From Anaerolineae bacterium (GTDB lineage Bacteria; Chloroflexota; Anaerolineae; Epilineales; JAHCIE01): a DNA stretch of 64,000 nucleotides. Position numbers and translations under genes: made by a program. The stretch lies in NCBI GenBank assembly GCA_046328505.1, contig JAXLWL010000004.1, positions 9,559-73,558 on the forward strand. Direction: 5' to 3'. The stretch's first letter is position 1. Each line of letters starts with the position of its first letter. Positions 16,372 to 55,174 of this stretch are shown in pieces. The notes beneath the pieces are model-generated. The model did no database searches, had not been told where the DNA came from, and saw only the letters and a list, made by a program, of their open reading frames with translations.

Positions 16372-16373
16372 GC

Positions 16374-26624: not shown

Positions 26625-26628
26625 CGCC

Positions 26629-30309: not shown

Positions 30310-31408
30310 GCATCTCTTTCCATCACTGGTTCTCGCTTTGCTCGTAACCGCTTTTCTTTCTACCTCCGTTCATGCCGACGGGCCAAACCCCGACCGGCCG
30401 CAGCCGCATGTCAATCGCGATCATCTGAACGTTCAGACCCGTGTCGAGAGCCGCCGCGACGGAGTCTATGTTGAGATTTCCGTCCAACAGTCAACGCCAG
30501 GGGAAGACCGGCCGAGTCCGCATGCGCGTGCTACCGATGAACCCTCGAACAACACTGCATCTGCAACGACTGCTACAAGTTCGGCTCAGCCGGTGAGCAC
30601 GGGACCGCAGGAGCGCTACTGGAGCAACAACACCGGGATCTACCGCGAGACGGTAGACGGTCACGTAATCCAGCTCACGCCGCCACCTATTGGCACAGCC
30701 AGCCTGAGCGCCTGGGACACCGCGCGGGCTAACCACCCCGACCAGACGCCGTATCTCCTGTACGTGGACGACCAGTACAACGGCGTCGTCTGGATCCCCC
30801 AGTCGCCCCAGAACGGCAACGTTCGCATCGAGGCGATGCCCTCCGCCCAGCCCTCGCGTCCCTCAGGTGATGACAACAGCACGGACGCGCGCGAAGTCGC
30901 CCTCAGCGCCCTGGGCCACGTGCGCCTCCCCGACATGCACGTCCGCGTGAACCCGTCCCTTGGCCTCGTCAACCTGCCGGGCTGGTTTTGGGTCGACGGC
31001 TACGACGGTCGCCCCTTCGGCGTCAGCCGCACCGTCCATGTCCCGCCCGAGATTGGCGACGATGTCCCCGATACCGTCGTCCCTGCCGACGACCCCCGTC
31101 GGCGCGGCACGAGTTTCACCGTCAGCGTGCGGATCTGGCCGAGCCAGTATGAGTGGAACTTCGGCGACGATCACATCCTGGTGACCGACTCCCTGGGCAA
31201 GCCCCACCCTGCCGAGTCCGACATCCAGCATACCTACGAGACCTCTTCCCTGGGTTTTGCCAACGGCTTCCCCGTTCGGCTGAGCGTCACCTTCCACGCC
31301 GAGTACCGCGTCAACGGTGGCCCGGCTGAGGCGCTGCCCTCGATCACCCAGGTGGTCGAGTACGGCTACCGCGTGCAGGAAGCGCAATCGGTTCTCACCG
31401 GTCATTGA
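30302..31408 (+). CDS. secreted hypothetical protein (tad-locus accessory)
   Basis: Signal peptide [25 protein letters not shown]. No recognisable domain. Confidence 0.45.
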
Positions 31409-31428
31409 GTGGGAGCGAGGAGGAAGTC

Positions 31429-34400
31429 ATGCAGACGACCTACGTAGACATGGACGAGCAGCGGCGCGACCGTGTGAGCCTCCTGGGGCTGATTGTCGGC
31501 CTGGTGGGCGTGGGCGTCTTCCTCTATAAGGTGCCCGGCCCGCCCCACTTGCCCGCGACGTGGCCGACGTGGGCTGGCATCGTCACGACCCTGCAGGGCA
31601 GCTATCTCCCCCTGGATGGCGTCATCTACGTGCTCATGATGCTCGCCTGGCTGCTCTGGGCCTGGCTGGCTTTCTCGCTTGTCCTGGAGCTGATTGTCGT
31701 AACCGTCGAGAAAGTCTCACAGGGCGCGGCGTGGGCGCGAAGCCTACGCGCTGCGGCTGACCATGTCACAGCGCCCATCGTGCGCCGCGTGGTGCAGGGC
31801 GCCGTCGTGGCAACCGTCGTGGTCAACCTCGTGGGCCGGTCGGGGACGCCGGCGAACGCCGCACCTATGGAGACAACCCCGATTGTGCTCCAGCAGCGGG
31901 CGCCAACAGATGCTGCGCCTCCGGTGGTCGAGCAAGAGGCCGAGCACAATCCGCGCGTCGTCGAGTACACGGTGCAGTCGGGCGACAGCCTGTGGGCCAT
32001 CGCCGAGCGCTTCTACGGCGACGGCGACGCCTATCCCCGCGTCGTCGCGGCCAACGTCGGCCGCGCCATGCCGAACAATGGGCGCTTCACGCCGGCCGGC
32101 GTCATCCACCCTGGCTGGGTGCTGGTCATCCCGCTCCCCGACGAGGCGCCGGCCGAGCACAGGCAGCGGACCACCTACGTCGTGGCAAAAGGGGATACAT
32201 TGTGGGGCATTGCCGGGAGGTTCTTGGGCGACCCGACCCGCTGGCCGGAAATCTTCGAGCTGAACCGCGGCGTTGCCCGCCATCCCCAGACGGGCTGGAC
32301 GCTCACGAACCCTAACCTCATCTGGCCGGGCCTGCCCCTCCAGATACCTGTCGAGGCGCCATCTGAGCAGCCCGCGCCCCTGCCCCCGGCTCCTGTTGTC
32401 GAGCATCCAGTGGAGACCTCGCCAGTTCCCGGCCTCCAACCTGGTACGATTACAACGGCAACGCCTCGGCCCGCAGAGCCTAAGCAAGTCGTCGTCGAAA
32501 CGCCCGTGGCAACACCGGTTCCCGTCGCCACGCCCTCGCCGGTCGTGCACGAGCAGGCTCTACCGCCTATAGTGTGGGGGGCAGTGGGGCTGATGGTCGC
32601 CGCCGGCATCGCTGGCCTGGCCTTGCGGCGTCGGGTGCGGCGCAGCGTGGCCGAGTCGCTGGCCCCCGACCCGGCGGAGGTCATGCCGCCCCACGGCGAC
32701 TTCGTCGACGCCGAGTTCGCGCGCCTGCTGCGCCACCGGCTGCAGAATGGCGAGGTCGAGGCGGCCGTTCTGGTTGCCGAGCAGACGCTGCGCTTCCTAC
32801 GCGATGAGGGCATAGAGGGAGTCTCCCTCATCATGGCCGGCCAGGGCGCCAAGTCAGTCAACCTGATTCTGTCCACGAGCTTACAAGACAAGGAGCGTAT
32901 TATCGCCTTGGCGCCTAAGATGGGCGCGCGCCTCGGCGGAACGGTCAAGGCGGAGACGACGTGCGACGACGATATCGCCCTCGAGGTATCGGAGCCCAAG
33001 CTCGCCGATGTCGCGTCTGCCTCTAAGCGCGCCCACGAGTTGCCCCGCCTTGTCGCCGTCGGGCTCTTGCCTCAGCAGACCACAACCTACATCAACTGGC
33101 CGAAGGCGGGTCATGTCCTTATCGCGGGGACCCCAGGCGGCGGGACGGACATAACGCTCACTAGCCTCATGTGCGCGTTGGCGACCCGCTATCACCCGGA
33201 CGCTCTCCGGCTGTACACCGTTGCCAGCCGCCGCGCCCTGCCACACCAGCTGTTCGATCTGCCACACGGGGTTGAGATCGCCGATTCGTCCGACGCAAGA
33301 GGCGTGCAGGGAATCCTGGAGCAGGTGGAGGCCGAGCTTGTTCGACGCATGAAAGCCGCCGCCGAAGGAGAAGCGACCCGGGAGCCAGAGATTGTGATTG
33401 TGCTGGGCGAGCTCGCCGACGTAGAGGACATTGCAGCGGTGGACATGATCGGAACGCACGGCACGGCGCATGGTATCCAGCTTCTTGCCGCCACAAGCCG
33501 CGTGGACGAGATCCCCGACGGGACGTTGGCGCTCTTCTCCACGCCGCTGGTTCTGCGACTACTCGACGACGAGACCAGCATTCGCGTCTTGGACGACAGC
33601 GCTGCCGCCGACCTGGGGCGCGGTGACATGTTCCTGTCCCTGGACAGCCGCTGGCCGATCCAGATGCGCGGCCTGCGCGTCTCACCGGAGCACCTGGATC
33701 AGCTGGTTACAGTGATGCGTGAGGCCTATGGGGAGCCGACACCGGCCCCATCCCTGGCAACCGCCGACGAGAACGACGCCGAGATAGTTGCCGACGGCGA
33801 GGAGCTTTCCGTGCAGTCGCCGAACGGGCACGCGCCAGCGGCTGTACCGGCCAAACCAGTCGAGGCTAAGCCCGACCTTCCGGTGGACGCGAGCGCAGCG
33901 GAAAACGACCTTGTTGAGCCTGTCACACTAGCGCTCCCGGCGCTTAACGGCCACACGCCACCGATACCCCTGCCGAGCGACGCCTCAGACGCGCCGCCTG
34001 AGGTCGACGGGGTTGAGGAGGAGCCGCCGGTGTTCATCCAGTGCTTCGGCAGCCTGGTCGTCCGATACGCGGGGAAGACCCTGCAGGCCAGGGCAGAAGG
34101 GCGCGCCATCCTCAAGTCGTGGGAGGTGATCGCCTACTTGGCGTGCTATCCACCCGAGGGCGTGACCGTGGATCGGCTAATCGCCGATGTCTGGCCCGAC
34201 ACTGACGGCGCTGACAAGAACGTGCTGCACATCGCGATGTACCGAGCACGCAAGGCACTGCAAGAGCAAGTCGAGAGTGTCAGCGACGACGTCATTCGCC
34301 TGGACCGCGATGGGACGTGTCTCCTCGACCGCGCGTTGGCCACGTCGGATGTCCACCAGTTCATGGCGCTCGTCTCGCGGGCACAAAGGCTTCCGTCTGC

Positions 34401-34854
34401 CCAAGCCAGGGCCGCATTGGAAAGAGCGCGGGACCTGTACCAGGGGGACCTGCTCTCCAGCCCTCAGGCGCGAACGTTCCACTGGCTTGACAATCGCGGG
34501 GCGAGCGGGTTGACGCTTCGCGAGACCTACCGCATCGAGTACCAGCGAGCCATGTGCCAGTTGGCGGGGCTCTACCGCGAAGACGGCGAGTTCCAGCGGG
34601 CTCAGGCGCTGCTGAAGGGCATGCTGCAGCAGGAGCCAACGCTCGAAGATGTCGTGCGCGAGCTGTATCGTCTCTACGCGCAGATGGGCGACCTGGCCGG
34701 GTTACGGCGGGAAGACCGTCGCCTGCGTCTGGCGCTGCAGTCCGCCTACTACGACCCGAACAACCCCGACGACGACCCCGGCCTCTACTCGCCCGAAGCC
34801 GAGACCGTCGCGCTATATAATGAGATACACAGGGCCCTGAACCCGATAAGCTAG
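31429..34854 (+). CDS. giant multidomain protein: N-terminal TM helices, two LysM domains, Pro-rich linker, TM helix, FtsK/SpoIIIE-like P-loop domain with degenerate Walker A, C-terminal BTAD (SARP-type transcriptional activator) domain
   Basis: LysM domains [20 protein letters not shown]... and [20 protein letters not shown].... FtsK-like [27 protein letters not shown] (no Walker Lys) and [12 protein letters not shown] (Walker B-like). BTAD-like [25 protein letters not shown]...[10 protein letters not shown]. Start at the ATG at 31429 with GAGGAGGA upstream. Confidence 0.6.
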
Positions 34855-35024
34855 GCCAATCCTGCCGTCCCACAACCTTCTATTCCTGTCCCCGCCCAAG
34901 CGGCTATGCTACTCGTGCATAACCGCTTGGTTGACTGTGTGACGTACCAGCCTATAATCAGCGGGTAGTGAGGGATGACCCGCTGACGGGTCTGTCTGAG
35001 CGTTGAGTGGCGGGGGGAAGGCGT

Positions 35025-38000
35025 ATGGACCTGGAAGGGTGGAAGCAAGCGACGAGAGAGCGGCTGCACGGAATGGCGGAGATCCTCCGGCGCAAGACAC
35101 CGGGCGCGGTGTACGGAGGGCTATCCGCAGCGGCTATACTGCCCATTATCAGCGCGCTAAACCAGGGCGACCTCATGGCGGTCCTGGCGTTTGGAAGTCT
35201 CCTCGGCAGTGTTGGCGCTGGCCTCATCACCAACCAGATTCAAGCGTGGAAGGACAAGAGCGACACGGAGTTGGCCGAGGAGCTGACGCAGAAGGCCGAA
35301 ACCGACGCCAAGTGGCGCGAGGCGCTGGACAAACTGATGCAGGAATTGGAGACACCGCGCCTTGCCCAGGAGACTCTCGCCCCCGGCGGCCGCGCCTGGC
35401 TCGCCGAGGCTCTCAACCAGGAGCTGACGCGTCTGGGTAGCAGCGTTCGCGTCCAAGGCAACGGGAACGTCGTCGCTGCAGGCAACATATCGGATAGCGT
35501 CATCAATTCGGGCCGCGTCGAAGCGCGCGAGGGTAGTGTCGTCATCATAGCGCAGCAGGTCTCGCGCGATATAGTGGCGAGCCTCAAGCCGGAAGGTCTG
35601 TCTGCGAGCGAACTCCAGGCCATCACCGAGCCCTACCTCAAGTACCTCATCACCCGCTACCGCTACCTCGACTTCAAGGGTATGGGCATGGCAGACCGCG
35701 TCCCATTGCGCCTCCCGATTGAAGATATGTACATTCCTCTTCGCGCACGCGTCGAGATACCACGATGGGAGCGGTCAGGTTGGCAGGACTTTGAGGCTTT
35801 GTCGGATCGTGAAGCGCAGTTGCTTGGAAGCCTGGAAACACCGGAGGAATCAAGATACACTACGGAGCGCTTCGGTGGATCCCCATGGCTCCTCGATCTT
35901 CTGGGGCGCCACGACGGTCTAGTCATCGTTGGTGACCCTGGGGCGGGCAAGACGACCTTCCTCAAGCATCTGACACTCTCCTTGGCGCTAGGTCATGGCG
36001 AAAGAGTTGGCTTAGCTAATCGTCTGCCCGTCCTAGTCCCGCTCTCGGCCTACGCTAGGGCTCTCGAGCTAGAGGACGTTGCTCTCCAGGAGTTCCTGGG
36101 GACGTATTACCGTAACCAGGGTACTGACCTATCGATTGACGCCCTCCTTGCGGCAGCGCTGTCCGACGGGCGCGCCCTGGTCATGTTTGATGGCCTCGAC
36201 GAGGTCCAGGAGATTACGCGCCGCGGTCTGGTACTGGAACGAGTGACCGCCTTCTACGCGCTGCACCGCCAACGCGGCAACAAGTTCATCCTCACTAGCC
36301 GAATCGTGGGCTACAAAGACGTGCGCCTGACGGCCGAAGGGCTCGAAGAGTGTACGCTGGTCGACTTCGACGAACGGGACATCCGCGAATTCATCAATAA
36401 GTGGACGTGTGCTGTGGAACAGGCGATCCACGGTCCGAGCGCATTTAGTCTCCGGCAGGCCGAGATCGAGGGGAATGAGCTGCTTGACGCTATTGCGCGC
36501 AATCCAGGTGTCCGCCAACTCGCTGCTAACCCCCTCCTGCTTACCATTCTGGCCCTCATGAAGCGCCAGGGTGTTGCCTTGCCCGAGCGCCGGGTCGAGC
36601 TATACGACAAGTACGTCGAGACGCTACTGCGCCATTGGAACCTGGCGCGGGGGTTGGACCGACGCGCAGCGCGGGACCTGGACGTGGTAGAGACGCTAAG
36701 AGTCATAGCGCCGCTTGCATTGTGGATGCAAGCGACAAGTCCAGGGCGTGGATTGGTTAAGCAAGCCGATCTACAGCGCCAGCTGATTGCCATCTACAGT
36801 GAGCGCGGGGAAGCAGACCCGGAGCGCGCTGCACGTCAGTTTCAGCACGACGTTCGCGACCACGCCGGGCTGCTGCTGGAGCGTGGTCCACGTGAGTACG
36901 GCTTCATCCACCTGACGTTCCAGGAGTATCTGGCTGCGGTGGCTATTGCTCAACATGGGCAGGTGGACGTGGCTCCAGTAGTGCGTACTCTGGCTGCGCA
37001 TATGGATGATGCCAGCTGGCGCGAAGCTGTACTCCTGACTATCGGCTATCTTGGTCTCATACAGCAAAGGGACGAAGCTGCGGGCGATGTGCTGCAGCAG
37101 CTTGTAGCTAGCCCTGAAGCTTCGCCTGCAGCTGTCGTATTAGCAGGTGAGGCGGCAGTTGATGCCGGACCAGGCGGAGTGTCAGTAAGCGGGCGTCAGG
37201 CAGTGGCTGGGGCGCTTCTGGCCGTCATGCGTGATGACGAGCATGCAGACGCTCTAACGCGAGCTGCGGCAGGTGATGCCCTGGCGAAGCTCGGCGATCC
37301 GCGATTCCGTGCCAACGCGTGGTTCCTGCCCGACGAGCCGCTACTGGGCTTCGTCAAGATTCCATCGGGTGGACTCACAATGGTCGAAGGCAGTACCGAG
37401 AACGTTGTCGATGTCCCTACGTTCTTCATTGGCCGCTACCCGGTAACGGTGGCCCAATTTGAGGCATACGTGGACGCGTCCGGCCAAACCCCCGTGAACA
37501 AACAGAGCCTTCGCGATCCCGTTAACCGTCCGGTGCGCTATATCAGCTGGAGCGAGGCGATGAATTACTGCCGCTGGTTGGCGGGAACGTTGCGGGTGTG
37601 GGCCGACACGCCACAGCCACTAGCCGATTGGCTGCGCGGGACCGGCGAGCGACCGCCCGGACGTATCACACTGCCGAGCGAAGCGGAATGGGAGAAGGCA
37701 GCGCGAGGAACGGCTGAACATACGTATCCCTGGGGCGAGCAGCCCAACCCAAATCGAGCTAACTACCGTGACACAAAGATTGGTGACACAAGTTCGGTCG
37801 GCTGTTTTCCTAGTGGTGCCAGTCCATACGGTATTGAGGAGATGGCTGGGAATGTTTGGGAGTGGACGCGCAGTATTCTAAAGAATTACCCTTATGACCC
37901 GAAAGACGGGCGTGAGGACGAAGCGATAGAAGGGAATCGCGTGGTGCGCGGGGGAGCGTTCATTGATAATGCCACCAGCTTGCGCTGCTCATTCCGCGGC

Positions 38001-38063
38001 AGGTATAGTCCCTTCTATGGAGGCAACGATCAGGGGTTTCGGGTCGTATTTTCCAATCTCTGA
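35025..38063 (+). CDS. STAND NTPase: N-terminal ~145-aa helical domain, G/N-rich strand motif, NACHT domain, C-terminal FGE-sulfatase (SUMF1-like) domain
   Basis: Walker A LVIVGDPGAGKTTFLKHL, Walker B LVMFDGLDEV. FGE-sulfatase signature RYPVTVAQFEAYV...LPSEAEWEKAARG...SPYGIEEMAGNVWEWT...VVRGGAF...GFRVV. Shared motif VQGNGNVVAAGNISDSVINSGRVEA at 35448-35531. Confidence 0.85.
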   Translation: MDLEGWKQATRERLHGMAEILRRKTPGAVYGGLSAAAILPIISALNQGDLMAVLAFGSLLGSVGAGLITNQIQAWKDKSDTELAEELTQKAETDAKWREALDKLMQELETPRLAQETLAPGGRAWLAEALNQELTRLGSSVRVQGNGNVVAAGNISDSVINSGRVEAREGSVVIIAQQVSRDIVASLKPEGLSASELQAITEPYLKYLITRYRYLDFKGMGMADRVPLRLPIEDMYIPLRARVEIPRWERSGWQDFEALSDREAQLLGSLETPEESRYTTERFGGSPWLLDLLGRHDGLVIVGDPGAGKTTFLKHLTLSLALGHGERVGLANRLPVLVPLSAYARALELEDVALQEFLGTYYRNQGTDLSIDALLAAALSDGRALVMFDGLDEVQEITRRGLVLERVTAFYALHRQRGNKFILTSRIVGYKDVRLTAEGLEECTLVDFDERDIREFINKWTCAVEQAIHGPSAFSLRQAEIEGNELLDAIARNPGVRQLAANPLLLTILALMKRQGVALPERRVELYDKYVETLLRHWNLARGLDRRAARDLDVVETLRVIAPLALWMQATSPGRGLVKQADLQRQLIAIYSERGEADPERAARQFQHDVRDHAGLLLERGPREYGFIHLTFQEYLAAVAIAQHGQVDVAPVVRTLAAHMDDASWREAVLLTIGYLGLIQQRDEAAGDVLQQLVASPEASPAAVVLAGEAAVDAGPGGVSVSGRQAVAGALLAVMRDDEHADALTRAAAGDALAKLGDPRFRANAWFLPDEPLLGFVKIPSGGLTMVEGSTENVVDVPTFFIGRYPVTVAQFEAYVDASGQTPVNKQSLRDPVNRPVRYISWSEAMNYCRWLAGTLRVWADTPQPLADWLRGTGERPPGRITLPSEAEWEKAARGTAEHTYPWGEQPNPNRANYRDTKIGDTSSVGCFPSGASPYGIEEMAGNVWEWTRSILKNYPYDPKDGREDEAIEGNRVVRGGAFIDNATSLRCSFRGRYSPFYGGNDQGFRVVFSNL

Positions 38064-38256
38064 CTCCTTTGAGGGGTTGAGGGCAGGCAGGTGAAACCCC
38101 CTCCTGCAGAGGGGGCCGGGTGAAGACCCTAACCCACCCAGTAGCAGAAGACCCCCACCCAGCCTCTCCCAGAGGGAGAGGCGCCTGACTTGTTCCCCTC
38201 AAACGCAGATGGCGAGGCCGGCAGAAGTTGACTTGGCCGGCCAAGGATGACAGACG

Positions 38257-41200
38257 ATGGACCTAAACACTTGGAAACAAGCTGCGCGTGACCGCCTTGT
38301 CGCGATCCGTGACGCGTTTCGCGGCCGCGCTCCGGGTACGTTGTACGGCGCTCTCTCAGCAGCTGCAATACTGCCCGTCGTTGCTGCTGTGAACCAGGGT
38401 GACTTTGCCGCGCTAGTGGCGCTCACTGGTGTTGTCGGCGGCGTGGGCGGCAACCTGATTGCGAACCAGATCCAGGCGTGGAAGGACAAGAGCGAGGCGG
38501 AGATTGCCGCGAACCTGACCGAGAAGGCCCAGGCGGACGACCAGTGGCGCGAGGCGCTGGACACGCTCATCGAGAAGCTCGACGTAGTGGCGGCAGTCGA
38601 AGTCGGGCTGAGCCAGGCCGACCAGCAGTGGTTCCAGGAGACGTTGCAGGCCGAAGTCGAGCGCCTGGGCAGCCGCGTCACAGTTAACGTGAAGGGCAAC
38701 CGCAATGTGGCGCCCGCTGGTGATATTCGCGAAAGCACGATTTTCACCGGCGACAATGCGACCTACATCGAGCGGCTCGACATCCGCTCGGCGGTCTTCC
38801 ATACGCCTCCGCAGCCTGGGCATGTCGATCCCAAAGAGCTACTGTGGACATATCTCAACCAGGTCATCAGCGACACTGGAGCCCTTGACTTGTCCGGCGT
38901 CGACAAGCGCACTGCTAGCGACCCTGAAGCAGCCCGCCTCGAGTTAGCTGCCGTGTACACTGCTCTAGATACGCTCCGACTTGAGGAACGACGGAGAACC
39001 CTGTCTTCCCAAACAGTGGAACAGATGGAACTGCCTTTCTTGTCAGAGCGCCAGTCGGTTCTTGCCTTTGTAAATGACGCGAAGTACGCAGCCCTCCTGG
39101 GTGACCCCGGCTCTGGCAAGACGACGTTTGCCAACTTTTTGGCGCTGTGTCTGGCGGGCGAAATTCTTGGCGAGGACCGCGCTAACCTGGCGCGTCTTGG
39201 GGACGCGTGGAAGCAGGACGCCCTCCTGCCCGTTCGCGTCGTTCTACGCCAGTTCGCCGCCCATCTCCCTGCGCCGCCTGACGCGAGCGCCAGCCTGCTG
39301 TGGGACTATATCATCCGCCGCCTAGGTCCGGGCCTGGACGGCTTCGCGCCTTTGCTGCGGAAGCACCTTGTCCAGCACGGCGGCCTGCTCATCCTCGACG
39401 GCCTGGACGAGGTGCCTGAGGCCCACCACCGCCGCGAGATCGTCAAAGGGGCCGTTCTCGACTTCAAGCGCCAGTTCCCGAAGGTTCGCATCCTGCTGAC
39501 CAGCCGCACCTATGCCTACCAGAACCGGCTATGGCGGCTGCCCGGCTTCGACGAGGCCGTCCTGGCGCCGTTCACGCCGGAGCAGGTTGACCTGTTCGTG
39601 AACAACTGGTACGCCCACATGGCCCAGGTGCGGCCCAACCTGTCGTCCGACGAGGCCCAGGGTCGCGCCGAGCGCCTCAAGGAGACCATCCACCGCGAGA
39701 GCCATCTGGCCGAGCTGGCCGAGCGCCCGCTACTGCTCACTCTCATGGCGTCCCTCCACGCCTGGCGTGGCGGCGCCCTGCCGGAGGACCGCGAGCAGCT
39801 CTACGACGAGAGCGTCGAGCTGCTGCTGGACGTGTGGGAGCGGCCCAAGGAGGTGGTGGACAGCGAGGGCAGCACGATCCTCCAGACGGAGAGCCTGGCC
39901 GAGTGGCTACGCGCACCCCAGGCGGACGTGCGTCAGGCGCTGGAGGCGCTGGCCTTCCGCGCCCACCGCGACCAGCCTCAACGAACCGGCGCGGCCGACA
40001 TCGGCGAAGACGCCCTGGCCGGGGCGCTGCTCAAAGTGGCGAAAGGCCGCGACCTCACCCTCGACCGCATCATTGACTATATCCTCGACCGCACCGGGCT
40101 GCTGGTCAATCTCGGCGAGGGCATCTACAGCTTTCCCCACCGCACGTTCCAGGAGTACCTGGCCGCTCGCCACCTGAGCGAGACCGACTTCCCGGGCCGG
40201 CTGGTCGAGCTGGTGCGGGCGGACCCGGAGCGCTGGCGCGAGGTGATGCTGCTGGCCGGGGCCAAGGTCAAGCGGGGGACGCCGTTCGCGGCGTGGGCGC
40301 TTGTGGATGCCCTGTGCTTCGGCGAGTGCGGCGACGGCGCCGGCGACGCCGACTGGTACGCCGCGCTGCTCGCCGGTCAGCTCCTGGTCGAGACCGGCAT
40401 GCACAAGGCGGCGGGGACGCCGGCCACGGCGGCGAAGGTGGCGCGGGTGCGCGGCTGGCTGACGAGGCTGGTGAGGGAGGGGCATCTGCCGCCGGTGGAC
40501 CGCGCTGCCGCAGGGCGCGCGCTGGGCTGGCTCGGGGACGAGCGGCCGGGCGTCAGTATCATTGTCCGCAATGGCGCGCAAATACCCGATATCGATTGGA
40601 TCGCGATTGAGCCGGGGCCGTTCATCATGGGGAACGATCATCCGCTGGCCGACTGGGCCAAACATATGGAAACGCCCCAGTTCACCTGCCAACTCATCAC
40701 ACGGCCCTATCGTATCAGCCGTTATCCGGTGACAGTGATGCAATATCAGGCATTCGTGGACGCTGACGGGTACCAGAACGCGCAGTATTGGTCCCTTGCA
40801 GAAGCAGCAGGTGTCTGGCGAGACAAACACACACTTCGCCGTGTACCATATCTGGTGGAGGATAGGATTGAATGGAAAGAGGAGTGGGCTGACCAGCCCT
40901 TAAGCTATGGTGTGCTATACTCCGCGCCCAATCAACCTCGGGTTGGAGTCACTTGGTACGAGGCGGCTGCGTTCTGCGCCTGGCTGAGTGAGGTTCTCGG
41001 CAAGCAGGTGCGACTGCCCACGGAAGCGGAGTGGGAGCGAGCGGCACGCCACACCGACGGGCGTGCCTATCCTTGGGGGAACGACTTCAACCCGCAACGT
41101 TGCAACATGGGTGATACGGGAATCGGTGCGCCGTCAACAGTGGGGATTTTCCCGAACGGCGCTTCAGCGTGCGGGGTACATGACATGGCCGGCAACGTGT

Positions 41201-41439
41201 GGGAATGGTGCAGCACGAAGTGGCTGGATAGCTATGACAGCTACGAAACGCGGGTCGATGATAGCATGACAGGAAGCGAAGACCGCGTGGTGCGTGGGAG
41301 CGCGTTCGACCTTCGTGGGGAATTCGTGGAATGTGCATTCCGCCTTGGGATTAGTTCAGTCGGTAGGAGCAGCAATCAGGGGTTTCGGGTGGTGTCCCCA
41401 GCCTCTGACTCTCTGGCCTCTGAATCCTCTGACCTCTGA
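38257..41439 (+). CDS. STAND NTPase paralogue: N-terminal ~145-aa domain, G/N-rich strand motif, NACHT domain, C-terminal FGE-sulfatase domain
   Basis: Walker A LLGDPGSGKTTFANFL, Walker B LLILDGLDEV. FGE signature RYPVTVMQYQAFV...LPTEAEWERAARH...GVHDMAGNVWEWCSTKW...VVRGSAF...GFRVV. N-terminus MDLNTWKQAARDRL... is paralogous to MDLEGWKQATRERL... of the preceding gene. Shared motif VKGNRNVAPAGDIRESTIFTGDNATYI at 38692-38766. Confidence 0.85.
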   Translation: MDLNTWKQAARDRLVAIRDAFRGRAPGTLYGALSAAAILPVVAAVNQGDFAALVALTGVVGGVGGNLIANQIQAWKDKSEAEIAANLTEKAQADDQWREALDTLIEKLDVVAAVEVGLSQADQQWFQETLQAEVERLGSRVTVNVKGNRNVAPAGDIRESTIFTGDNATYIERLDIRSAVFHTPPQPGHVDPKELLWTYLNQVISDTGALDLSGVDKRTASDPEAARLELAAVYTALDTLRLEERRRTLSSQTVEQMELPFLSERQSVLAFVNDAKYAALLGDPGSGKTTFANFLALCLAGEILGEDRANLARLGDAWKQDALLPVRVVLRQFAAHLPAPPDASASLLWDYIIRRLGPGLDGFAPLLRKHLVQHGGLLILDGLDEVPEAHHRREIVKGAVLDFKRQFPKVRILLTSRTYAYQNRLWRLPGFDEAVLAPFTPEQVDLFVNNWYAHMAQVRPNLSSDEAQGRAERLKETIHRESHLAELAERPLLLTLMASLHAWRGGALPEDREQLYDESVELLLDVWERPKEVVDSEGSTILQTESLAEWLRAPQADVRQALEALAFRAHRDQPQRTGAADIGEDALAGALLKVAKGRDLTLDRIIDYILDRTGLLVNLGEGIYSFPHRTFQEYLAARHLSETDFPGRLVELVRADPERWREVMLLAGAKVKRGTPFAAWALVDALCFGECGDGAGDADWYAALLAGQLLVETGMHKAAGTPATAAKVARVRGWLTRLVREGHLPPVDRAAAGRALGWLGDERPGVSIIVRNGAQIPDIDWIAIEPGPFIMGNDHPLADWAKHMETPQFTCQLITRPYRISRYPVTVMQYQAFVDADGYQNAQYWSLAEAAGVWRDKHTLRRVPYLVEDRIEWKEEWADQPLSYGVLYSAPNQPRVGVTWYEAAAFCAWLSEVLGKQVRLPTEAEWERAARHTDGRAYPWGNDFNPQRCNMGDTGIGAPSTVGIFPNGASACGVHDMAGNVWEWCSTKWLDSYDSYETRVDDSMTGSEDRVVRGSAFDLRGEFVECAFRLGISSVGRSSNQGFRVVSPASDSLASESSDL

Positions 41440-41464
41440 CTCCCTCTGGGTCTTTGTCCCTTGG

Positions 41465-41499
41465 GGTCTGGGGGCTTTGCCCCCAGACCGGATTTTGGG
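41465..41499 (+). terminator. GC-rich hairpin (11-bp stem GGTCTGGGGGC/GCCCCCAGACC, TTT loop) followed by GGATTTTGGG; terminator- or attenuator-like element 6 nt upstream of the caspase start
   Basis: Perfect inverted repeat at 41465-41489 with a short U-run after it. Lies between NACHT gene 2 and the caspase gene. Confidence 0.3.
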
Positions 41500-41504
41500 A
41501 GAAA

Positions 41505-42494
41505 ATGATGGCCAACACATTTGACCATGGCTACGCACTGCTCATCGGCGTCGGAACGTGCGCCTACACCGCCTGGTCGCTGCCGGTGACGGTCAAGGAC
41601 ATGGGGGCGCTGCGCGGCGTCCTGGCCGACCCAACGCTGTGCGCCTACCCCGACGACGCCGACCACCTGCGCCTGCTCCACGACGCCGGCGCGACCCGCG
41701 CCGACATCCTCGACGGCCTGGCCTGGCTTGCCGAGCGCACTGCGGCCGACCCCGATGCCACCGCCATCGTCTACTACTCGGGCCACGGATTGGTGGACAA
41801 GGCCAGCAGCTGCTACTACCTTATCCCCCACGACGTGCAGCCCTTCGACATTCCCGGCTCGGCCCTGCCCACCGACGACTTCCACGCCGCGCTGCGCAAA
41901 GTCAATGCGCGGCGCCTGCTCGTCGTCATTGATGCCTGCCACGCCGAGGGCATGGCGACAGCGAAGGATCAGCCTGCCTTCGCGCTGCCGAAGGGCTTCG
42001 AGCAGGAAGCGCCATCGAAGGGGCTGGTGGACGCGCTGAAGGAAGGCGAGGGCCGCGCCGTGTTCACCTCGTCGCGGGGAACGCAGAGTTCGTGGATTCG
42101 GCCTGACGGCGCGATGAGCATCTACACGTACCATCTCATCGAAGCGCTGCACGGCGCGGCGGCTCAACTCGGTGACACGACTGTGACGGTGGGCCAGCTC
42201 CAGCACCACCTGGGTCGAACGGTTCCCGAGAGCGCCCGCGCAATGTGGAAGCAAGAGCAGACGCCCTTCTTCGACACGGCGACCGAGGACTTCCCCGTGG
42301 CACTGCTGCGCGGCGGCAAGGGGCTGCCGGCCGGCGGATGGCAGGCGGTGGAACCGTCGACCGCGCCGCGTCCGCGGACATCCATCAAGGCAAAGGGCAA
42401 CCGCAATGTCGTGTCCGGCGGCGACATGCGCGGCAACGTCATCGTCACGGGCGACAACGCCAACATCCGGAGGGGAGATGACCAGGATGAGTGA
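41505..42494 (+). CDS. caspase-like (peptidase C14/CHAT-type) protease with C-terminal G/N-rich motif shared with the upstream NACHT proteins
   Basis: Catalytic dyad context IVYYSGHG and LLVVIDACHAEG. C-terminal tail KAKGNRNVVSGGDMRGNVIVTGDNANIRRGDDQDE (42383-42494). GGGAGA RBS then ATGATG. Confidence 0.8.
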   Translation: MMANTFDHGYALLIGVGTCAYTAWSLPVTVKDMGALRGVLADPTLCAYPDDADHLRLLHDAGATRADILDGLAWLAERTAADPDATAIVYYSGHGLVDKASSCYYLIPHDVQPFDIPGSALPTDDFHAALRKVNARRLLVVIDACHAEGMATAKDQPAFALPKGFEQEAPSKGLVDALKEGEGRAVFTSSRGTQSSWIRPDGAMSIYTYHLIEALHGAAAQLGDTTVTVGQLQHHLGRTVPESARAMWKQEQTPFFDTATEDFPVALLRGGKGLPAGGWQAVEPSTAPRPRTSIKAKGNRNVVSGGDMRGNVIVTGDNANIRRGDDQDE

Positions 42495-42896: not shown

Positions 42897-45186
42897 ATGA
42901 ACGAGCAAAGGCGCGAGTTCGGACTTCTTCTCACGCAAGGGCTGAAGAGTATCGCCGCCCGTCAACACAAGGGTCTGGGCGTCCTGGAGGATGAGCTCGG
43001 CTACGAACTCGGCGTCACCGGCTGGGCGATCCAGGGTTGGCGCCAGGATCGCATCCCGCCCCACCCTGGCCAGGTTTGCTCTTCTAGCCCGCAGATGTGT
43101 ACAGCAGGGAGGCATGGATCGCCAGTGGCTCCTCCGTTTCCTCACGCTGAGCCAGTACCCTGAGAAAGATGGATTGCTGGCTGAGTTATGTCCTGGAGAG
43201 GCTGAGCCGCGAGGGGCTGCGCACCATAACCTCCCCGGCCGTCCATACGAATCCTTCATCGGGCGAGAGAAGGAACTGGCAGACCTTGTGCCTATCCTTG
43301 CCCGCGAGCATCGTATCGGGGTCGTCTGCATTAGTGGGATCGGTGGCGTAGGCAAGACGGCGTTGGCCCAGGAAGTTGCCCACCGCTTCTGCACTGCGAC
43401 CTCGAAACTGCCCTCGGCCGACCGCTTTGAGGCTATCGTCTGGGTCACCGCCAAGCGGACGGAGCTTCTGGCACGAGGTCTCACGCAACGGCAGCCCACG
43501 TTTAGCGACCTCGACGGTGTTTACCGCGCCATCGCCGATGTCCTGGATTTGCCGGCGGTCATGCGCGCCGCGACGCGCGAAGAGCAAGAGCTTCTCGTGA
43601 CTCGCGTGCTCGGCGAACATCGGGTTCTCCTGGTGCTAGATAACCTGGAAGACGTGGATGACCCGGCTCTGATGGTATTCTTGCGCGATCTTCCCACTCC
43701 CAGCAAGGCCGTCGTCACCACCCGCCACCGCATCGACGTCGCAGCGCCGATCCATCTCCGCGCTTTGAACGAAAGCGATGCGCAAAAGCTCATTGCGTCG
43801 GAGTGCCAGCGCCATAATCTACAACTGACGAATGACGAATGCGACAAGCTGCTCCGCCGGACCGGCGGCCTGCCGCTGGCGATTGTGCGCACCATCGGTC
43901 GGATGGCCTGGCGCGGCAGCAGCATCGAGATGGAGCTGCGTCAACTTGGAGCGCCCACCTCCGAAATCTATCAGTTCTGCTTCGATAAGAGCATCGCTCT
44001 CATTCAGGGCAGCGATGCTCATCGTCTATTCATGGCCCTCGCTCTCTTCGCGGCTGACGCCAGTCGAACCGCCATCGGCGAGGTCGCCGGCTTGAATGGA
44101 GATACGTTGAGCCGCGACGAAGGATTGAGTGATCTCGACGTGCTTTCGCTGGTCAACAAGAGTGCTGACCGCTTCAGCCTGGACCCGCTGACAAAGGTCC
44201 GGGCACAGGCAGAACTCAGGGCGAATCCCGCTTTTGAGGAGTCAGCCCGCGAGCGCTTCCAGGATTTCTACACGCAGTTCGCTTTCGACACGTGTGGCGA
44301 AACGTACTGGGGAAGCTATCTTCGGCAGGAGCGCTATGACGAAGTTGAGCGAGAGTTCGAGAACATCCTGGCTGTGTTTTCCTATGCTCGCGAGGCGGAA
44401 GACAACCTGACGATCGTGCGCTTGTTCAGCTCGATTGTTCACTTCATGGCTCGCCGCAACCGGTGGCCGGAGCGTCTGTCCTGGGTCCATCCCGCCATCG
44501 CGGCAGCCCAACGGCTAGAGGATGTTGCGTCGGAGGTCTGGTTTCGAATTGATGCCCTGGGCTGGATGCTACTCCAGCAAGGACGGACTGAAGAAGCCCT
44601 CGAGCAGTTGAATCTCGTGGAGAAGCTTGTCCCCAGGCTTGATGTTGAAACAGCTTACGATGCGACGATCTTCGTCCATTGTTACCGGAGTCGAGCAGCA
44701 CGGCGGCGAGGTGATCTGGACGAAGCGTATCGAGCGCTCCAGCCGGTATTTGACCAACCATGCCATCCTTTTGCGAGCCGTCACCTGCTCACTTACCTGG
44801 GCGAGCTGCTGTACTACCGGGGAGAATACGCGCAGGCGCGCAAGGTTCTTGCCGAAGCCGCGGCGATCTGCGATGAGATCGGCGACGATTCGGGGCGCGC
44901 CATTGTTCTCAACACCCTCGGCCTCACGTTAGTGCAGCAGACGGCGTATGCCGAGGCCGAGCCAGTCCTCGACGAAGTACTCGCATTCGAAACGAGTCTC
45001 GGCCGCGTTCATGGAATCGCGCGCGCACAGCAGGGCCTCGCGATGCTGGCCTGGGCGCGTGGCGATCGCGCGAAGGCTCTTGAGCTGGGCCGCCGGTCCA
45101 GCGCCGGTTTTGCCCGCCTTGGCATGCGACAGGAAGAGGCCGAGGTCGCCAACCTTATAGCCGACTGGGGCAACGAGATCCATTAA
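42897..45186 (+). CDS. STAND NTPase: N-terminal HTH, NB-ARC ATPase, TPR repeats; N-terminal region carries a -1 frameshift near 43074-43078
   Basis: HTH MNEQRREFGLLLTQGLKSIAARQHKGLGVLEDELGYELGVTGWAIQGWRQDRIPPHPGQV (frame 0) continues as LLARRCVQQGGMDRQWLLRFL (frame +1), colinear with the intact paralogue at 58607. Walker A GVVCISGIGGVGKTALAQEV, Walker B VLLVLDNLED. C-terminal TPR-like repeats. Confidence 0.7.
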
Positions 45187-45297
45187 CTCTCTTCCCTAAC
45201 AGCTGCATGTTTCTTGACAGAGCGTAACCGTCTCCCACCCTCAGCGTTCTAATTAGTACACCTTGTGGACAGCAATGCGGCTGGAGGGAGAGAGGGA

Positions 45298-48900
<3,603 letters not shown>

Positions 48901-48982
48901 CAGACTCGATAAACACTTCATCGAATTTCGAAGTAGACAACAGCCAATCCCTATGCGGCTCCGAAGTCCAGGGAACTGTTCG

Positions 48983-49990
48983 CTAAACTCTCGAGCGTGT
49001 AGCGTACCATCTTTGCCACGCTTGAACGAGGGCTGGATTTGTGCAACGCGCAATAATATCTTGTGCCATTTCCGCCCAAGCCCGACGGCGTGCCGCCTCA
49101 GCACACAGTACCAGAAGCAGATTGTGGTACGCGGCCGGAAGGTGGGAATGCCTCGCTAACCCTTCGAGTTCCTGCTGGGTGAGAACTGGCTGTATCATGT
49201 GATCGATGCTCTGAGCCATGGTATCAAGTACTCTCTCGGACTCCCTCTTTGGAAGCATCAACGAGTCAGGATTTTGCTCAGCGTGAACTGAGAGATCGAC
49301 GGATATGGATGGCAGGTCATTTTGGTATAGATGCAAGCTATCACTGAGGTGATGATAGGAGCCGACCTCAATACCTAACCAGCCCGCGACAATCTCATGG
49401 AGCGAGGTAAACTGGACTACGTTGTGTGGCAAACCTCGGAAGATGTCGTTGCTCCTCATAACTTGCAGCCACTCAAGTTTGCCGTTCCTCACCTTAAGCA
49501 TTGACAAAATATTGCAAGGGATATCCGGGTTAACTGGTTCGCCATCAGGGTTGGGAAAGTCAATGGCCGGGTCCCATATCTGCAAAACAACTTGCCGAGT
49601 GCTCGAATTGTTCTGTAAGGCCAGGAATGCGCGTTCTAGTTGATCGACTCCGAAGTGACGCCGCAAACGAAAGCCGTATGCCCCATGGTAGATGTCGCTG
49701 TAACCCGCAAACTTGGGCAGTTGTCGGTTCCAGTAATTTAGGAATTTGGCATCATTGCGACCATTCAGGATCCAGATGACCTCCGCAATGGCAAACGCCG
49801 GGTTGAGCGGCGGGTGGCGTGACACAATCCAACGTTGTCGAGGGTCGCCGATGCAAAAGACAGCGTGCAGAAGTTCAACGGTAGATCCGCCACGACCCGC
49901 ATGCGCATGAGTGCTTTGAGCACCCATCAATTGCTCCATTACCTGTTGCCATACTTCGTCAGCCGTTTGACCTTCATAGACGTGAATCAT
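48983..49990 (-). CDS. thymidylate synthase (ThyA)-fold protein, divergent; candidate pyrimidine dNMP hydroxymethylase/methylase
   Basis: TS hallmarks: AFAIAEVIWILNGRND, YGFRLRRHFG, SSTRQVVLQIWDP, and catalytic-Cys context PDIPCNILSMLKVRNGKLEWLQVMRSNDIFRGLPHNVVQFTSLHEIVA. Not canonical ThyA. Start at MIHVYEG (49990) with GGAGAG upstream. Confidence 0.7.
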   Translation of the reverse strand: MIHVYEGQTADEVWQQVMEQLMGAQSTHAHAGRGGSTVELLHAVFCIGDPRQRWIVSRHPPLNPAFAIAEVIWILNGRNDAKFLNYWNRQLPKFAGYSDIYHGAYGFRLRRHFGVDQLERAFLALQNNSSTRQVVLQIWDPAIDFPNPDGEPVNPDIPCNILSMLKVRNGKLEWLQVMRSNDIFRGLPHNVVQFTSLHEIVAGWLGIEVGSYHHLSDSLHLYQNDLPSISVDLSVHAEQNPDSLMLPKRESERVLDTMAQSIDHMIQPVLTQQELEGLARHSHLPAAYHNLLLVLCAEAARRRAWAEMAQDIIARCTNPALVQAWQRWYATRSRV

Positions 49991-54011: not shown

Positions 54012-54038
54012 CAATCCCTCTCTTACCACTGGTAAGAA
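54011..54038. promoter_or_regulatory. operator-like triple half-site TCTTACC-N4-GGTAAGA-N3-TCTTACC at the 5' end of the XRE/ImmA operon
   Basis: Perfect 7-bp inverted repeats at 54011-54017, 54022-54028 and 54032-54038, immediately upstream of the first gene of the minus-strand operon. Confidence 0.45.
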
Positions 54039-55010: not shown

Positions 55011-55174
55011 CCTGAGTTGGTGTAAAAACTCTAACCGAGGCTGACTTGCCGACGATGTTGAGTATAATCAGGCCGTGGTGTGCCTGTACGCAGAAAGGCG
55101 CGTGCTGTGTGAACACGCGTGACCGTCTCGACGAGGGCACGCCTCCCCAACCTCCAATCCCTAGAAAGCTGCCC

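What the first reader, a model, noticed from the sequence alone, without database searches (positions are those of the whole stretch)
35025..42494. Two NACHT-FGE-sulfatase NTPases plus a caspase-like protease linked by a shared G/N-rich strand motif: candidate amyloid-type NLR signalling/cell-death module
Three consecutive same-strand genes share a 25-30 aa motif. NLR1 has VQGNGNVVAAGNISDSVINSGRVEA (35448-35531). NLR2 has VKGNRNVAPAGDIRESTIFTGDNATYI (38692-38766). The caspase has KGNRNVVSGGDMRGNVIVTGDNANI at its extreme C-terminus (42383-42491). NLR2 and the caspase even share the identical 17-nt string AAGGGCAACCGCAATGT. The G/N-rich pattern with alternating hydrophobics resembles the short amyloid signalling motifs that couple fungal HET-S-type effectors to NWD2-type NLRs. 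It also resembles the motifs reported computationally next to NB-ARC/NACHT genes in multicellular bacteria. Here the motif sits after a paralogous ~145-aa N-terminal domain in the NLRs, not at the extreme N-terminus, and the effector partner is a caspase-like protease. Both NLRs end in an FGE-sulfatase domain as a presumptive sensor. The arrangement suggests ligand-triggered NLR oligomerisation that templates and activates the protease. I do not recognise it as a described system.
Basis: partly seen in the sequence, partly recalled or inferred. Interest (0 to 1): 0.9.

Follow-up and report, generated by a model that had tools for sequence, protein, structure and literature searches.

The report
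NLR–caspase module with shared adaptor motif
Two bacterial immune-receptor genes and a neighbouring caspase gene share a short glycine/asparagine-rich motif that most likely docks the protease onto the activated receptors; this coupling principle is already described, here in an unusual layout behind an uncharacterised helical domain.

Summary
Three co-oriented genes encode two paralogous NACHT + FGE-sulfatase proteins and a C14 caspase. All three carry a ~25-aa G/N/V-rich motif: after a ~140-aa N-terminal domain in the NLRs, and at the caspase C-terminus.

An HMM built only from non-window instances finds exactly these three sites in the six-frame window (E 2e-10, 4e-10, 0.009).

The motif belongs to a described class. 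The caspase-family tail consensus (GERSVAIGGDVxGSxIITGDxN) matches published BASS6 sequences (hhalign P 4e-7). It also forms the beta half of Pfam EAD10 in neighbouring STAND proteins.

In 29 of 47 related caspase loci the tail matches another ORF in the locus, almost always the adjacent gene. In the other loci found with the same N-terminal domain and a caspase, the motif type switches concordantly in both partners.

So receptor–effector coupling through the motif is well supported. Its amyloid nature is untested; AlphaFold leaves the motif unstructured in monomers.

What looks new:
- the internal position of the motif;
- the unannotated helical N-terminal domain with a hydrophobic hairpin (588 clusters);
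- two receptors beside one protease.

Verdict: a new variant of a known kind, of moderate interest.

The parts
34931..34958 (+). Promoter-like site (TTGACT-16-TATAAT) about 65 nt upstream of the NLR1 start; possible operon promoter
   Evidence: 11 of 12 consensus matches. This is a consensus match only, not shown to function.
35025..38063 (+). NLR1: N-dom + motif + NACHT + FGE-sulfatase (1012 aa from the MDLEGW start; the ORF opens at GTG 35007)
   Evidence: The start at 35025 is inferred from alignment with NLR2 and homologues, which all begin MDLxxW. P0132, returned by the representatives search, has this sequence and length.
35025..35450 (+). NLR1 N-terminal helical domain ('N-dom', ~140 aa) with a hydrophobic hairpin
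   Evidence: No Pfam match. Family of 588 clusters. KD19 maxima of 1.7-2.0 at about aa 27-69.
35451..35525 (+). NLR1 motif VQGNGNVVAAGNISDSVINSGRVEA (the most diverged copy)
   Evidence: score 55; 1/2000 shuffles reach it; E 0.009.
35919..36404 (+). NLR1 NACHT NTPase module (Walker A GDPGAGKT at nt 35931, Walker B DGLDE at nt 36189)
37395..38048 (+). NLR1 FGE-sulfatase (FGS, C-type-lectin fold) C-terminal domain, presumed sensor
   Evidence: E 6e-45.
38257..41439 (+). NLR2: N-dom + motif + NACHT + FGE-sulfatase (1060 aa), 31% identical to NLR1 overall
38257..38676 (+). NLR2 N-dom
38689..38769 (+). NLR2 motif VKGNRNVAPAGDIRESTIFTGDNATYI
   Evidence: score 87; 0/2000 shuffles; E 1.8e-10. pLDDT about 31-36 in the monomer model.
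39088..39615 (+). NLR2 NACHT module (Walker A GDPGSGKT at nt 39100, Walker B DGLDE at nt 39397)
40594..41394 (+). NLR2 FGE-sulfatase domain; the catalytic cysteine position of FGE is not conserved
   Evidence: E 4.6e-48; where T. curvata FGE reads GGSFLCH, NLR2 reads GSAFDLR.
41508..42494 (+). Caspase (Peptidase_C14, 328 aa; the ORF opens at TTG 41454) with the catalytic dyad His93/Cys144
   Evidence: (P0001 is 100% identical, named 'caspase family protein, Anaerolineae bacterium'). AlphaFold2 pLDDT about 90 for the domain.
42393..42467 (+). Caspase C-terminal motif KGNRNVVSGGDMRGNVIVTGDNANI, 8 residues before the stop
   Evidence: E 7e-6 against the caspase-tail HMM; E 4.3e-10. Tail residues 272-328 have pLDDT below 50.

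Best explanation
This is a three-gene NLR/caspase conflict (abortive-infection or programmed-death) module in a defence island of an Anaerolineae genome.

Components:
- Two paralogous STAND receptors. Each has a helical N-terminal domain, a ~25-aa beta-type motif, a NACHT NTPase, and a non-catalytic FGE-sulfatase (FGS, lectin-fold) sensor.
- One C14 caspase whose C-terminal tail carries the same motif.

Proposed mechanism:
1. The FGS domain binds an invader-derived ligand (inferred from the Kaur et al. model).
2. The NACHT module oligomerises (inferred from STAND biology).
3. Oligomerisation brings the otherwise unstructured motif segments together.
4. The clustered motifs assemble with the caspase tails through a homotypic beta-interaction. 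The pairing is shown by comparative genomics; its physical nature is inferred.
5. Caspase molecules are concentrated and activated, and perhaps the membrane-directed N-terminal domain as well.

The leading specific model for step 4 is amyloid-like templating, as proposed for BASS motifs and shown for Bab/Agp BASS11. I give that sub-claim about 0.4, and the homotypic coupling itself about 0.75.
For: Domains and active-site motifs are intact. The motif is shared well beyond chance.

The motif belongs to a described class:
- Window-type motif versus the caspase-tail consensus: hhalign P 3.7e-9.
- Caspase-tail consensus versus 21 published BASS6 sequences: P 4.2e-7.
- A BASS6 HMM ranks caspase tails and neighbour N-termini as 19 of its 20 best hits among 4993 ORFs.
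- Neighbours of homologous caspases in L003 and L012 match Pfam EAD10 above threshold. Their EAD10 match covers almost the whole profile and contains the same motif as its beta part.

Pairing is the rule in this caspase family:
- In 29 of 47 loci the caspase tail has z>4 (0/200 shuffles) to another ORF in the locus. This is almost always the adjacent gene, and nearly always near its N-terminus.
- Cognate pairs score above non-cognate pairs (permutation p 0.003).

Motif type co-varies in loci with the same N-dom NLR:
- L047: GSGAIAQDHSVAAGAGGIAIG / GSGSAAVDHSAAAGAFGIAING
- L060: ...GDGSIAQGGSVAAGKGGIAVKGNVQGGI / ...GSGAVAQNGGVAAGAGGVAVRGKVEGGI
- L085/L086: the same motif type
- L015 and the window: the GDRNV...TGD type

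Context is a defence island with Hma, a thymidine-hypermodification-like cassette and further STANDs.

Literature: STAND-FGS systems with adaptor-coupled effectors (PMC8195603), BASS on CHAT effectors, and amyloid signalling in antiphage defence.
Against: - No direct evidence of interaction, of amyloid formation, or of any phenotype.
- AlphaFold2 leaves the motif unstructured in both monomers.
- The window motifs do not reach Pfam EAD10 and score only 5.5 bits against my BASS6 HMM. Membership is therefore transitive.
- The same motif also sits between caspase and NTPase inside single polypeptides (L004, L022, L029). A trans-acting role is therefore not the only possibility.
- Five N-dom NLR loci found independently of the caspase have no caspase within 8-9 kb (L001, L002, L083, L087, L088).
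- NLR1's copy is weakly similar to the caspase's and may not pair with it.
Confidence: 0.6

Rival explanations
1. The motif is a homotypic adaptor, but it forms a finite, non-amyloid assembly rather than an open-ended templated fibril. This could be strand exchange or a small beta-solenoid within the NLR ring, functionally like CARD-CARD or the other EADs.
For: Kaur et al. treat EAD10 as a small alpha+beta domain acting through homotypic interaction. Neighbours in L003 and L012 carry the motif as part of an almost full-length EAD10 match with a helical half. The motif occurs inside fused caspase-NTPase proteins, where templating is not needed. Only one motif copy is present per window protein.
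Against: The composition and the G-punctuated short-strand pattern match BASS6. In the wider family such motifs occur in tandem, like solenoid rungs (P0255). A related class, BASS11, forms real amyloid with signalling function. The window proteins lack the helical half of EAD10.
Confidence: 0.25
2. The motif is only a conserved effector-to-NOD linker. The free caspase-plus-tail gene is a fission product of a caspase-motif-NACHT-FGE fusion, and the similarity to the NLRs reflects common descent, not interaction.
For: Fused forms exist (L004, L022, L029). L015 looks like a split of such a fusion: the caspase tail ends ...QAEHYY and the next ORF begins MLPMAAIGGED. The motif is predicted to be disordered. 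N-dom NLRs often lack a nearby caspase.
Against: Many free caspases at about 60% identity keep the motif at their extreme C-terminus with high conservation. The motif type changes in step in both partners across loci. Cognate pairs exceed non-cognate pairs. In 29 of 47 loci the tail matches another ORF in the locus, almost always the adjacent gene, whatever the tail type, including helical EAD-like tails.
Confidence: 0.08
3. The motif is a protease recognition or cleavage site. The caspase tail acts as an autoinhibitory pseudosubstrate, and the activated caspase cuts the NLRs at the motif to release the hydrophobic N-terminal domain as a membrane-damaging fragment, as in gasdermin-type activation.
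For: The motif lies exactly at the junction between N-dom and the NTPase. It has conserved R and D residues (G-x-R, TGD). N-dom contains a buried hydrophobic hairpin.
Against: Nothing supports it directly. The same motif class pairs Bell-domain proteins with NLRs in loci that have no protease. It also sits at the extreme N-terminus of many neighbouring NTPases, where cleavage would release nothing.
Confidence: 0.05

Closest known systems
BASS (bacterial amyloid signalling sequence) NLR/effector gene pairs, especially BASS6 (Dyrka et al. 2020, bioRxiv 10.1101/2020.01.06.895854)
   Same: A short G/N-rich motif is shared between the C-terminus of an effector and an adjacent NLR, in filamentous phyla including Chloroflexi. 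The BASS6 consensus (SGERSVAVGGD..G.I.TGD) is the consensus of this caspase family's tails. BASS motifs on CHAT effectors are reported.
   Different: BASS motifs were defined on Bell-domain effectors and on the extreme N-terminus of NB-ARC/NACHT proteins with TPR or WD repeats. Here the effector is a C14 caspase and the sensor is FGE-sulfatase. The NLR-side motif is internal (aa about 145-171), behind a 140-aa domain. The window copies are diverged (GNRNV...) and match BASS6 only through intermediates. The preprint's headings and abstract describe experiments on BASS1 and BASS3 only.
EAD-coupled STAND NTPase-FGS conflict systems and EAD10 (Kaur, Burroughs, Iyer, Aravind: eLife 2020 PMC7159879; eLife 2021 PMC8195603)
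   Same: A STAND NTPase with a C-terminal FGS domain; an N-terminal adaptor repeated on a neighbouring effector; caspase among the effector domains listed for these systems; several paralogous NTPase-FGS copies per genome. Pfam EAD10 in related loci contains this motif as its beta part.
   Different: The window proteins do not match Pfam EAD10 and lack its helical half. The paper lists EAD1, 2, 7, 8 and bDLD3 for NTPase-FGS, not EAD10 and not this N-dom. No DGR reverse transcriptase or template repeat is in the window.
Bab/Agp antiphage Abi system with BASS11 (Ibarlosa et al. 2024, bioRxiv 10.1101/2024.11.07.622273)
   Same: Adjacent genes in a defence island share a ~25-aa motif. The sensor's motif activates the effector by amyloid templating, which is shown experimentally.
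   Different: [quoted passage not shown] The effector is a small Bell-like pore former, not a caspase. The motif family is different.
Fungal HET-S/NWD2 (HeLo domain + prion-forming domain, templated by an NLR N-terminal motif)
   Same: The order 'helical membrane-directed domain, then short beta motif' resembles N-dom + motif. The NLR carries a matching motif.
Apaf-1/caspase-9 CARD-CARD recruitment and bacterial STAND proteins with fused N-terminal caspases (Nature 2026, PMC13581612)
   Same: A STAND oligomer recruits or carries a caspase for proximity activation. FGE-sulfatase sensors are listed among defence STANDs.
   Different: The adaptor here is a short, probably beta-forming motif rather than a death-fold domain.

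Membership tests
BASS-type amyloid signalling pair (Dyrka 2020) | The same short motif at the C-terminus of an effector and in an NLR encoded by an adjacent or closely linked co-linear gene | tested here: met
   The caspase motif ends 8 aa before the stop. NLR2 ends 68 nt upstream of the caspase start. Scores are 87 (NLR2) and 55 (NLR1) against a shuffle mean of 29.
BASS-type amyloid signalling pair (Dyrka 2020) | NLR-side motif at the extreme N-terminus of the NLR | tested here: not met
   The motif is at aa 145-171 (NLR2) and 143-167 (NLR1, from the MDL start), after N-dom. The same holds in L015, L047 and L060.
BASS-type amyloid signalling pair (Dyrka 2020) | Match to a published BASS profile (BASS6) | tested here: inconclusive
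   Direct tests are weak: 5.5 bits (E about 2) for the window copies and hhalign P 1e-4 (30%). The transitive route is stronger: window type to caspase-tail consensus P 3.7e-9, and consensus to BASS6 P 4.2e-7.
BASS-type amyloid signalling pair (Dyrka 2020) | Forms amyloid fibrils or prion-like foci, with cross-seeding between partners | not testable with these tools
   Monomer AlphaFold2 models give pLDDT 25-36 for the motif. Multimer modelling was not available.
EAD-coupled STAND NTPase-FGS system (Kaur 2021) | A STAND NTPase followed by a C-terminal FGS (FGE-sulfatase) domain | tested here: met
   Walker A and B are intact.
EAD-coupled STAND NTPase-FGS system (Kaur 2021) | The adaptor in the NTPase N-terminal region is duplicated on an effector encoded by a neighbouring gene, and cognate copies are closest to each other | tested here: met
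   (the window pair is reciprocal best among 11 loci).
EAD-coupled STAND NTPase-FGS system (Kaur 2021) | The adaptor is one of the defined EAD/bDLD domains (here Pfam EAD10, PF19954) | tested here: not met
   No EAD10 hit for the caspase tail at E<=10 or for the NLR2 segment at E<=1. Neighbours in L003 (33.9 bits) and L012 (27.4 bits) do pass the 24.1-bit cut-off.
EAD-coupled STAND NTPase-FGS system (Kaur 2021) | Frequent association of the FGS gene with a DGR (reverse transcriptase, template repeat) | tested here: not met
   No TR/VR-type repeat and no RT among the annotated window ORFs. A DGR could lie elsewhere in the genome.
Caspase / Peptidase C14 | Caspase fold with a His-Cys catalytic dyad | tested here: met
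   Pfam 1e-17. SGH93G and DAC144H are invariant in 35 homologues. AlphaFold2 pLDDT is about 90.
Formylglycine-generating enzyme (catalytic FGE) | Active-site cysteine pair | tested here: not met
   Where bacterial FGE (6s07) reads GGSFLCH, NLR2 reads GSAFDLR. This points to a binding rather than a catalytic domain. The identity of the catalytic Cys in FGE comes from my own knowledge.
Bell / HeLo-like membrane-targeting execution domain (candidate identity of N-dom) | A ~100-aa helical bundle whose first helix is hydrophobic, with an acidic residue at position 2-3, and homology or fold match to Bell | tested here: inconclusive

The most novel reading that the evidence does not exclude
N-dom plus motif is a built-in HET-S-like execution switch fused to the receptor. 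Receptor oligomerisation nucleates a beta-assembly of the motif. That assembly unlocks the buried hydrophobic hairpin of N-dom in cis, causing membrane damage. In trans it templates the caspase tail. One nucleus would thus fire two different death effectors, and two receptors of different specificity would converge on one protease. N-dom would then be a new, widespread family (588 clusters) of NLR-linked cell-death domains.
Probability: 0.2. Interest if true: 0.7.

Novelty: new variant of a known kind. Interest (0 to 1): 0.45.

Why it matters
Two independently described concepts appear to overlap here, and I did not find that overlap stated in the papers I read. They are the Saupe/Dyrka 'amyloid signalling motifs' and the Aravind 'effector-associated domains'. 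The BASS6-like motif is the beta half of Pfam EAD10 in related loci.

The locus also gives a compact, testable case in which a caspase, rather than a pore former, would be switched on by such a motif in bacteria. That mirrors Apaf-1/caspase-9 recruitment with a different adaptor.

It exposes a large unannotated N-terminal domain family. In the members examined the domain is always followed by a variable beta-type motif, on NACHT/NB-ARC receptors with FGS, HEAT or WD40 sensors.

If the motif is a real templating switch, this would extend amyloid signalling to protease activation. It would also extend it to motifs embedded inside receptors.

Tried and rejected
- **Pfam, NCBIfam and PADLOC on the N-terminal 145-200 aa and on the caspase tail:** nothing significant.
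- **Stand-alone 'N-dom + motif' effectors:** I first took P0124 and P0129 for stand-alone effectors. Their contigs show NACHT-FGE genes broken by DDE_3 transposases, and the L001/L087 assemblies are fragmented. This idea was dropped.
- **The 17-mer as evidence of gene conversion:** rejected as stand-alone evidence, because an unrelated 17-mer is also shared by the two genes.
- **Direct BASS6 HMM scoring of the window motifs:** too weak. I used profile-profile comparison through the caspase-tail consensus instead.
- **Widening the N-dom sample:** the metagenome scan with the N-dom alignment returned only 4 loci. The third word-indexed homologue search returned only 11 proteins. The unbiased estimate of caspase co-occurrence therefore rests on few loci.
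- **DGR search:** no template/variable repeat and no reverse transcriptase in the window.
- **Downstream NB-ARC-TPR gene (42991-45186):** it has no motif copy and was not included in the module.

Full report
**1. What is there**

Three co-oriented ORFs lie between 35.0 and 42.5 kb:
- NLR1: 35025-38063 (the ORF opens at 35007)
- NLR2: 38257-41439
- caspase: 41508-42494 (the ORF opens at 41454)

Pfam gives NACHT plus a C-terminal FGE-sulfatase domain for both large proteins, and Peptidase_C14 for the small one. Walker A and B motifs and the caspase His93/Cys144 dyad are intact.

The two NLRs are 31% identical overall and 49% identical over the N-dom and motif alignment.

NLR1 and NLR2 are separated by 193 nt; NLR2 and the caspase by 68 nt. 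A strong promoter-like site lies at 34931-34958, and no plus-strand terminator-like site lies between the genes. One operon is therefore plausible.

The caspase is 100% identical to a protein annotated from an Anaerolineae MAG on an 836-kb contig.

The surroundings are a defence island:
- an NB-ARC-TPR STAND gene;
- an HmaA helicase, a DUF1156 methylase and a HEPN-DUF499 ATPase;
- a thymidylate-synthase-like gene and a 5-hmdU-kinase gene;
- a second NB-ARC-TPR gene.

**2. The observation**

The caspase tail aligned to every window ORF scores 87 with NLR2 and 55 with NLR1. The next best score is 43. Shuffles average 29 ± 4.2.

An HMM built only from 12 instances outside the window picks exactly these three sites out of 1379 six-frame segments: E 1.8e-10, 4.3e-10 and 0.009.

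The shared 17-mer is real. It is not remarkable alone, because another 17-mer is shared by the same two genes. The 68-75 nt of motif DNA are 71-74% identical.

**3. The motif is a member of a described class**

Homologues of the caspase at about 60% identity come from Anaerolineae, Chloroflexia, Caldilineae, Planctomycetota and filamentous cyanobacteria. They carry interchangeable C-terminal tails.

The commonest tail is GERSVAIGGDVxGSxIITGDxN. Others are:
- GSGAIAQGPGAVAAGAGGVAVGGDVxGG;
- QxGKYNIxIGxAxGIAIGD;
- coiled-coil tails;
- EAD7, EAD9, TCAD2 or KTSC domains.

Table S2 of Dyrka et al. 2020 lists BASS6 pairs such as GERSVAVgGDNSGTISTGDGA / GARSVAVaGDNHAHIFTGDGV and ATGFRSVAVGGDVGVAITGDGAR. 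This is the same consensus.

Quantitative support:
- An HMM of 21 published BASS6 sequences ranks caspase tails and neighbour N-termini as 19 of its 20 best hits among 4993 ORFs.
- hhalign gives P 4.2e-7 for the caspase-tail motif against BASS6, and P 3.7e-9 for the window-type subfamily against the caspase-tail motif.
- The direct comparison of window type against BASS6 is weak (P 1e-4).

Independently, the N-termini of the STAND genes next to the caspases in L003 and L012 pass the Pfam EAD10 threshold (L036 and L065 just below it) over nearly the whole profile. That profile is a ~35-aa helical part followed by ...ATGERAVAxGGxxxxAxIVTGDxN.

So the BASS6-like motif is the beta half of Aravind's EAD10. 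The window copies themselves do not reach Pfam EAD10.

**4. Pairing is the rule, and it co-varies**

I tested 47 loci with a free caspase. In 29 of them the tail has a highly significant local match (z>4; 0 of 200 shuffles) to another ORF in the locus.
- The match is almost always to the adjacent gene and nearly always near its N-terminus (in most within the first 90 aa).
- This holds for every tail type.

Over 11 loci with the GERSV-type motif, cognate pairs score higher than permuted pairs (p 0.003). The window and L007 pairs are reciprocal best.

The most telling evidence comes from NLRs with the same N-terminal domain that lie next to caspases in L015, L047, L060 and L085/L086. The motif type switches in both partners together:

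| Locus | Caspase | NLR |
|---|---|---|
| L047 | GSGAIAQDHSVAAGAGGIAIG | GSGSAAVDHSAAAGAFGIAING |
| L060 | YSATVTGDGSIAQGGSVAAGKGGIAVKGNVQGGIRL | FTATVSGSGAVAQNGGVAAGAGGVAVRGKVEGGIHI |
| L085 | ...GGGVVATGGSVAAGKGGVAVSGDVHGDI | ...GSGAIVQGAGAMGAGAGSVVVGGDVLGSI |
| L015 | GDRNVVAENITGGVIQTGDNS | GDRNFVGNATNSIVQLGDHA |

**5. The N-terminal domain**

N-dom (about 140 aa) has no match in Pfam, NCBIfam or PDB sequences.

A full HMMER scan of 1.84 billion representatives finds 588 clusters (425 at E<=1e-10). The domain starts at residue 1-10 in nearly all of the 150 listed proteins.

Full-length members are mostly NACHT + FGE-sulfatase. NACHT + HEAT and NB-ARC + WD40 also occur.

In about 140 members the domain is always followed by a G/N/V/A-rich beta-type motif of variable type, sometimes two types in tandem. 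An example is P0255: GSGAIAQGPGAVAAGERGVAVGGHVQGSTIVTGDANR.

AlphaFold2 predicts an eight-helix bundle with pLDDT 85-93. Helices at about aa 27-46 and 50-69 form the most hydrophobic stretch of the whole protein, with KD19 of 1.8-2.0.

N-dom occupies the position that the caspase occupies in fused caspase-motif-NACHT-FGE proteins (L022, L029). I therefore infer that it is an effector or membrane-association domain. This is inference only.

**6. Limits**

- The motif is unstructured in both monomer models, with pLDDT 25-36. This cannot separate a conditionally folding motif from a linker.
- The motif also occurs inside single polypeptides (L004, L022, L029).
- L015 looks like a split of such a fusion.
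- N-dom NLR loci found without reference to the caspase (L001, L002, L083, L087, L088) lack a caspase within 8-9 kb; L085/L086 have one. The caspase is thus an optional partner, or it is encoded elsewhere.
- NLR1's copy is much closer to the motifs of other N-dom NLRs (P0124) and to the L015 caspase than to the window caspase.
- The FGE-type domains lack the FGE active-site cysteine position. This fits the sensor role proposed by Kaur et al.
- No DGR is in the window.

**7. Interpretation and comparison**

The best-supported reading is an adaptor-coupled NLR/caspase death module. The pairing through the motif is shown by comparative data. Ligand sensing, oligomerisation and proximity activation are inferred from STAND and caspase biology. 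Amyloid-like templating is a plausible but untested physical mechanism.

All main ingredients are already published:
- BASS motifs, including on CHAT effectors;
- STAND-FGS systems with adaptor-linked effectors and several paralogues per genome;
- experimental amyloid signalling in an antiphage system;
- FGE-sulfatase sensors in defence STANDs.

What differs here:
- the motif lies internally, behind a new domain family;
- the effector is a C14 caspase;
- two receptors sit with one protease;
- the data link BASS6 with EAD10.

Noticed in passing
window 45265-64000: An Hma-type defence system. It comprises an HmaA SNF2 helicase (45265-48900; PADLOC 1691 bits), a DUF1156 methylase (55046-58171), and a HEPN_Swt1 + DUF499 ATPase (60980 onwards, running off the window). 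Two inserts interrupt it: a low-GC cassette and a second NB-ARC-TPR gene (58571-60970).
   Followed up: partly
window 48983-53375 (minus strand): A cassette of a thymidylate-synthase-like gene, a 5-hmdU DNA kinase (HMUDK_hel, 5e-113), an unannotated 266-aa ORF and a Peptidase_M78/IrrE gene. GC here is only 0.52, against about 0.62-0.69 around it. It looks like a horizontally acquired thymidine-hypermodification module.
   Followed up: no
window 25389-25716: Five tandem ~63-nt units, each holding an inverted repeat (CACTTTCCCGG...CCGGGAAAGTG). They lie just upstream of two T2SSF (TadB/C-like) genes at 25767-27603. The function is unknown.
   Followed up: no
window 42897-45186: The NB-ARC + TPR gene downstream of the caspase has no motif copy. 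A short ORF in another frame (42897-43163) overlaps its 5' end, so there may be a frameshift or a mis-set start.
   Followed up: no
window 31405-34854: A 1149-aa protein combines two LysM domains, an FtsK/SpoIIIE-like ATPase and a Trans_reg_C + BTAD (SARP-like) C-terminus. It lies directly upstream of the module. PADLOC gives a weak mad8 hit.
   Followed up: no
L004 4077-7256; L022 9698-13522; L029 10001-13519; L015 9986-13561: In L004, L022 and L029 the caspase, motif and STAND NTPase are fused in one polypeptide of 1059-1274 aa. In L015 the same arrangement is split into a caspase-plus-tail gene and a following NTPase-FGE ORF.
   Followed up: partly
L001 8871-9341; L002 9016-10107: N-dom NACHT-FGE genes are interrupted by DDE_3 transposase insertions right after the motif. 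This produces apparent stand-alone 'N-dom + motif' proteins (P0124, P0129). In L001 a second NLR-like ORF (12405-12935) starts directly with a closely similar motif, MQSRGDRNVMGENLRDNVIQTGDQ.
   Followed up: partly
L003 5215-6822; L012 11115-15494; L036 1255-2763; L065 7146-9650: The beta half of Pfam EAD10 (PF19954) has the same consensus as published BASS6. Two literatures appear to describe overlapping objects under different names.
   Followed up: yes
window 39390 and 41705: A second exact 17-mer (CATCCTCGACGGCCTGG) is shared by NLR2 and the caspase gene outside the motif. It shows that 17-nt identities arise by chance or codon bias in this GC-rich DNA.
   Followed up: yes
window 41470-41484: A GC-rich hairpin (GGGGGC-TTT-GCCCCC) lies in the 68-nt spacer between NLR2 and the caspase. 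A GGGAG Shine-Dalgarno-like site follows, before the ATGATG start. It was not scored as a terminator by the scan.
   Followed up: no
window 2634-21313: The left part of the window is a metal-homeostasis region. It holds two P-type ATPases (one with an HMA domain), a cation-efflux protein, a DUF305 protein and a HAMP histidine kinase. It is unrelated to the finding.
   Followed up: no
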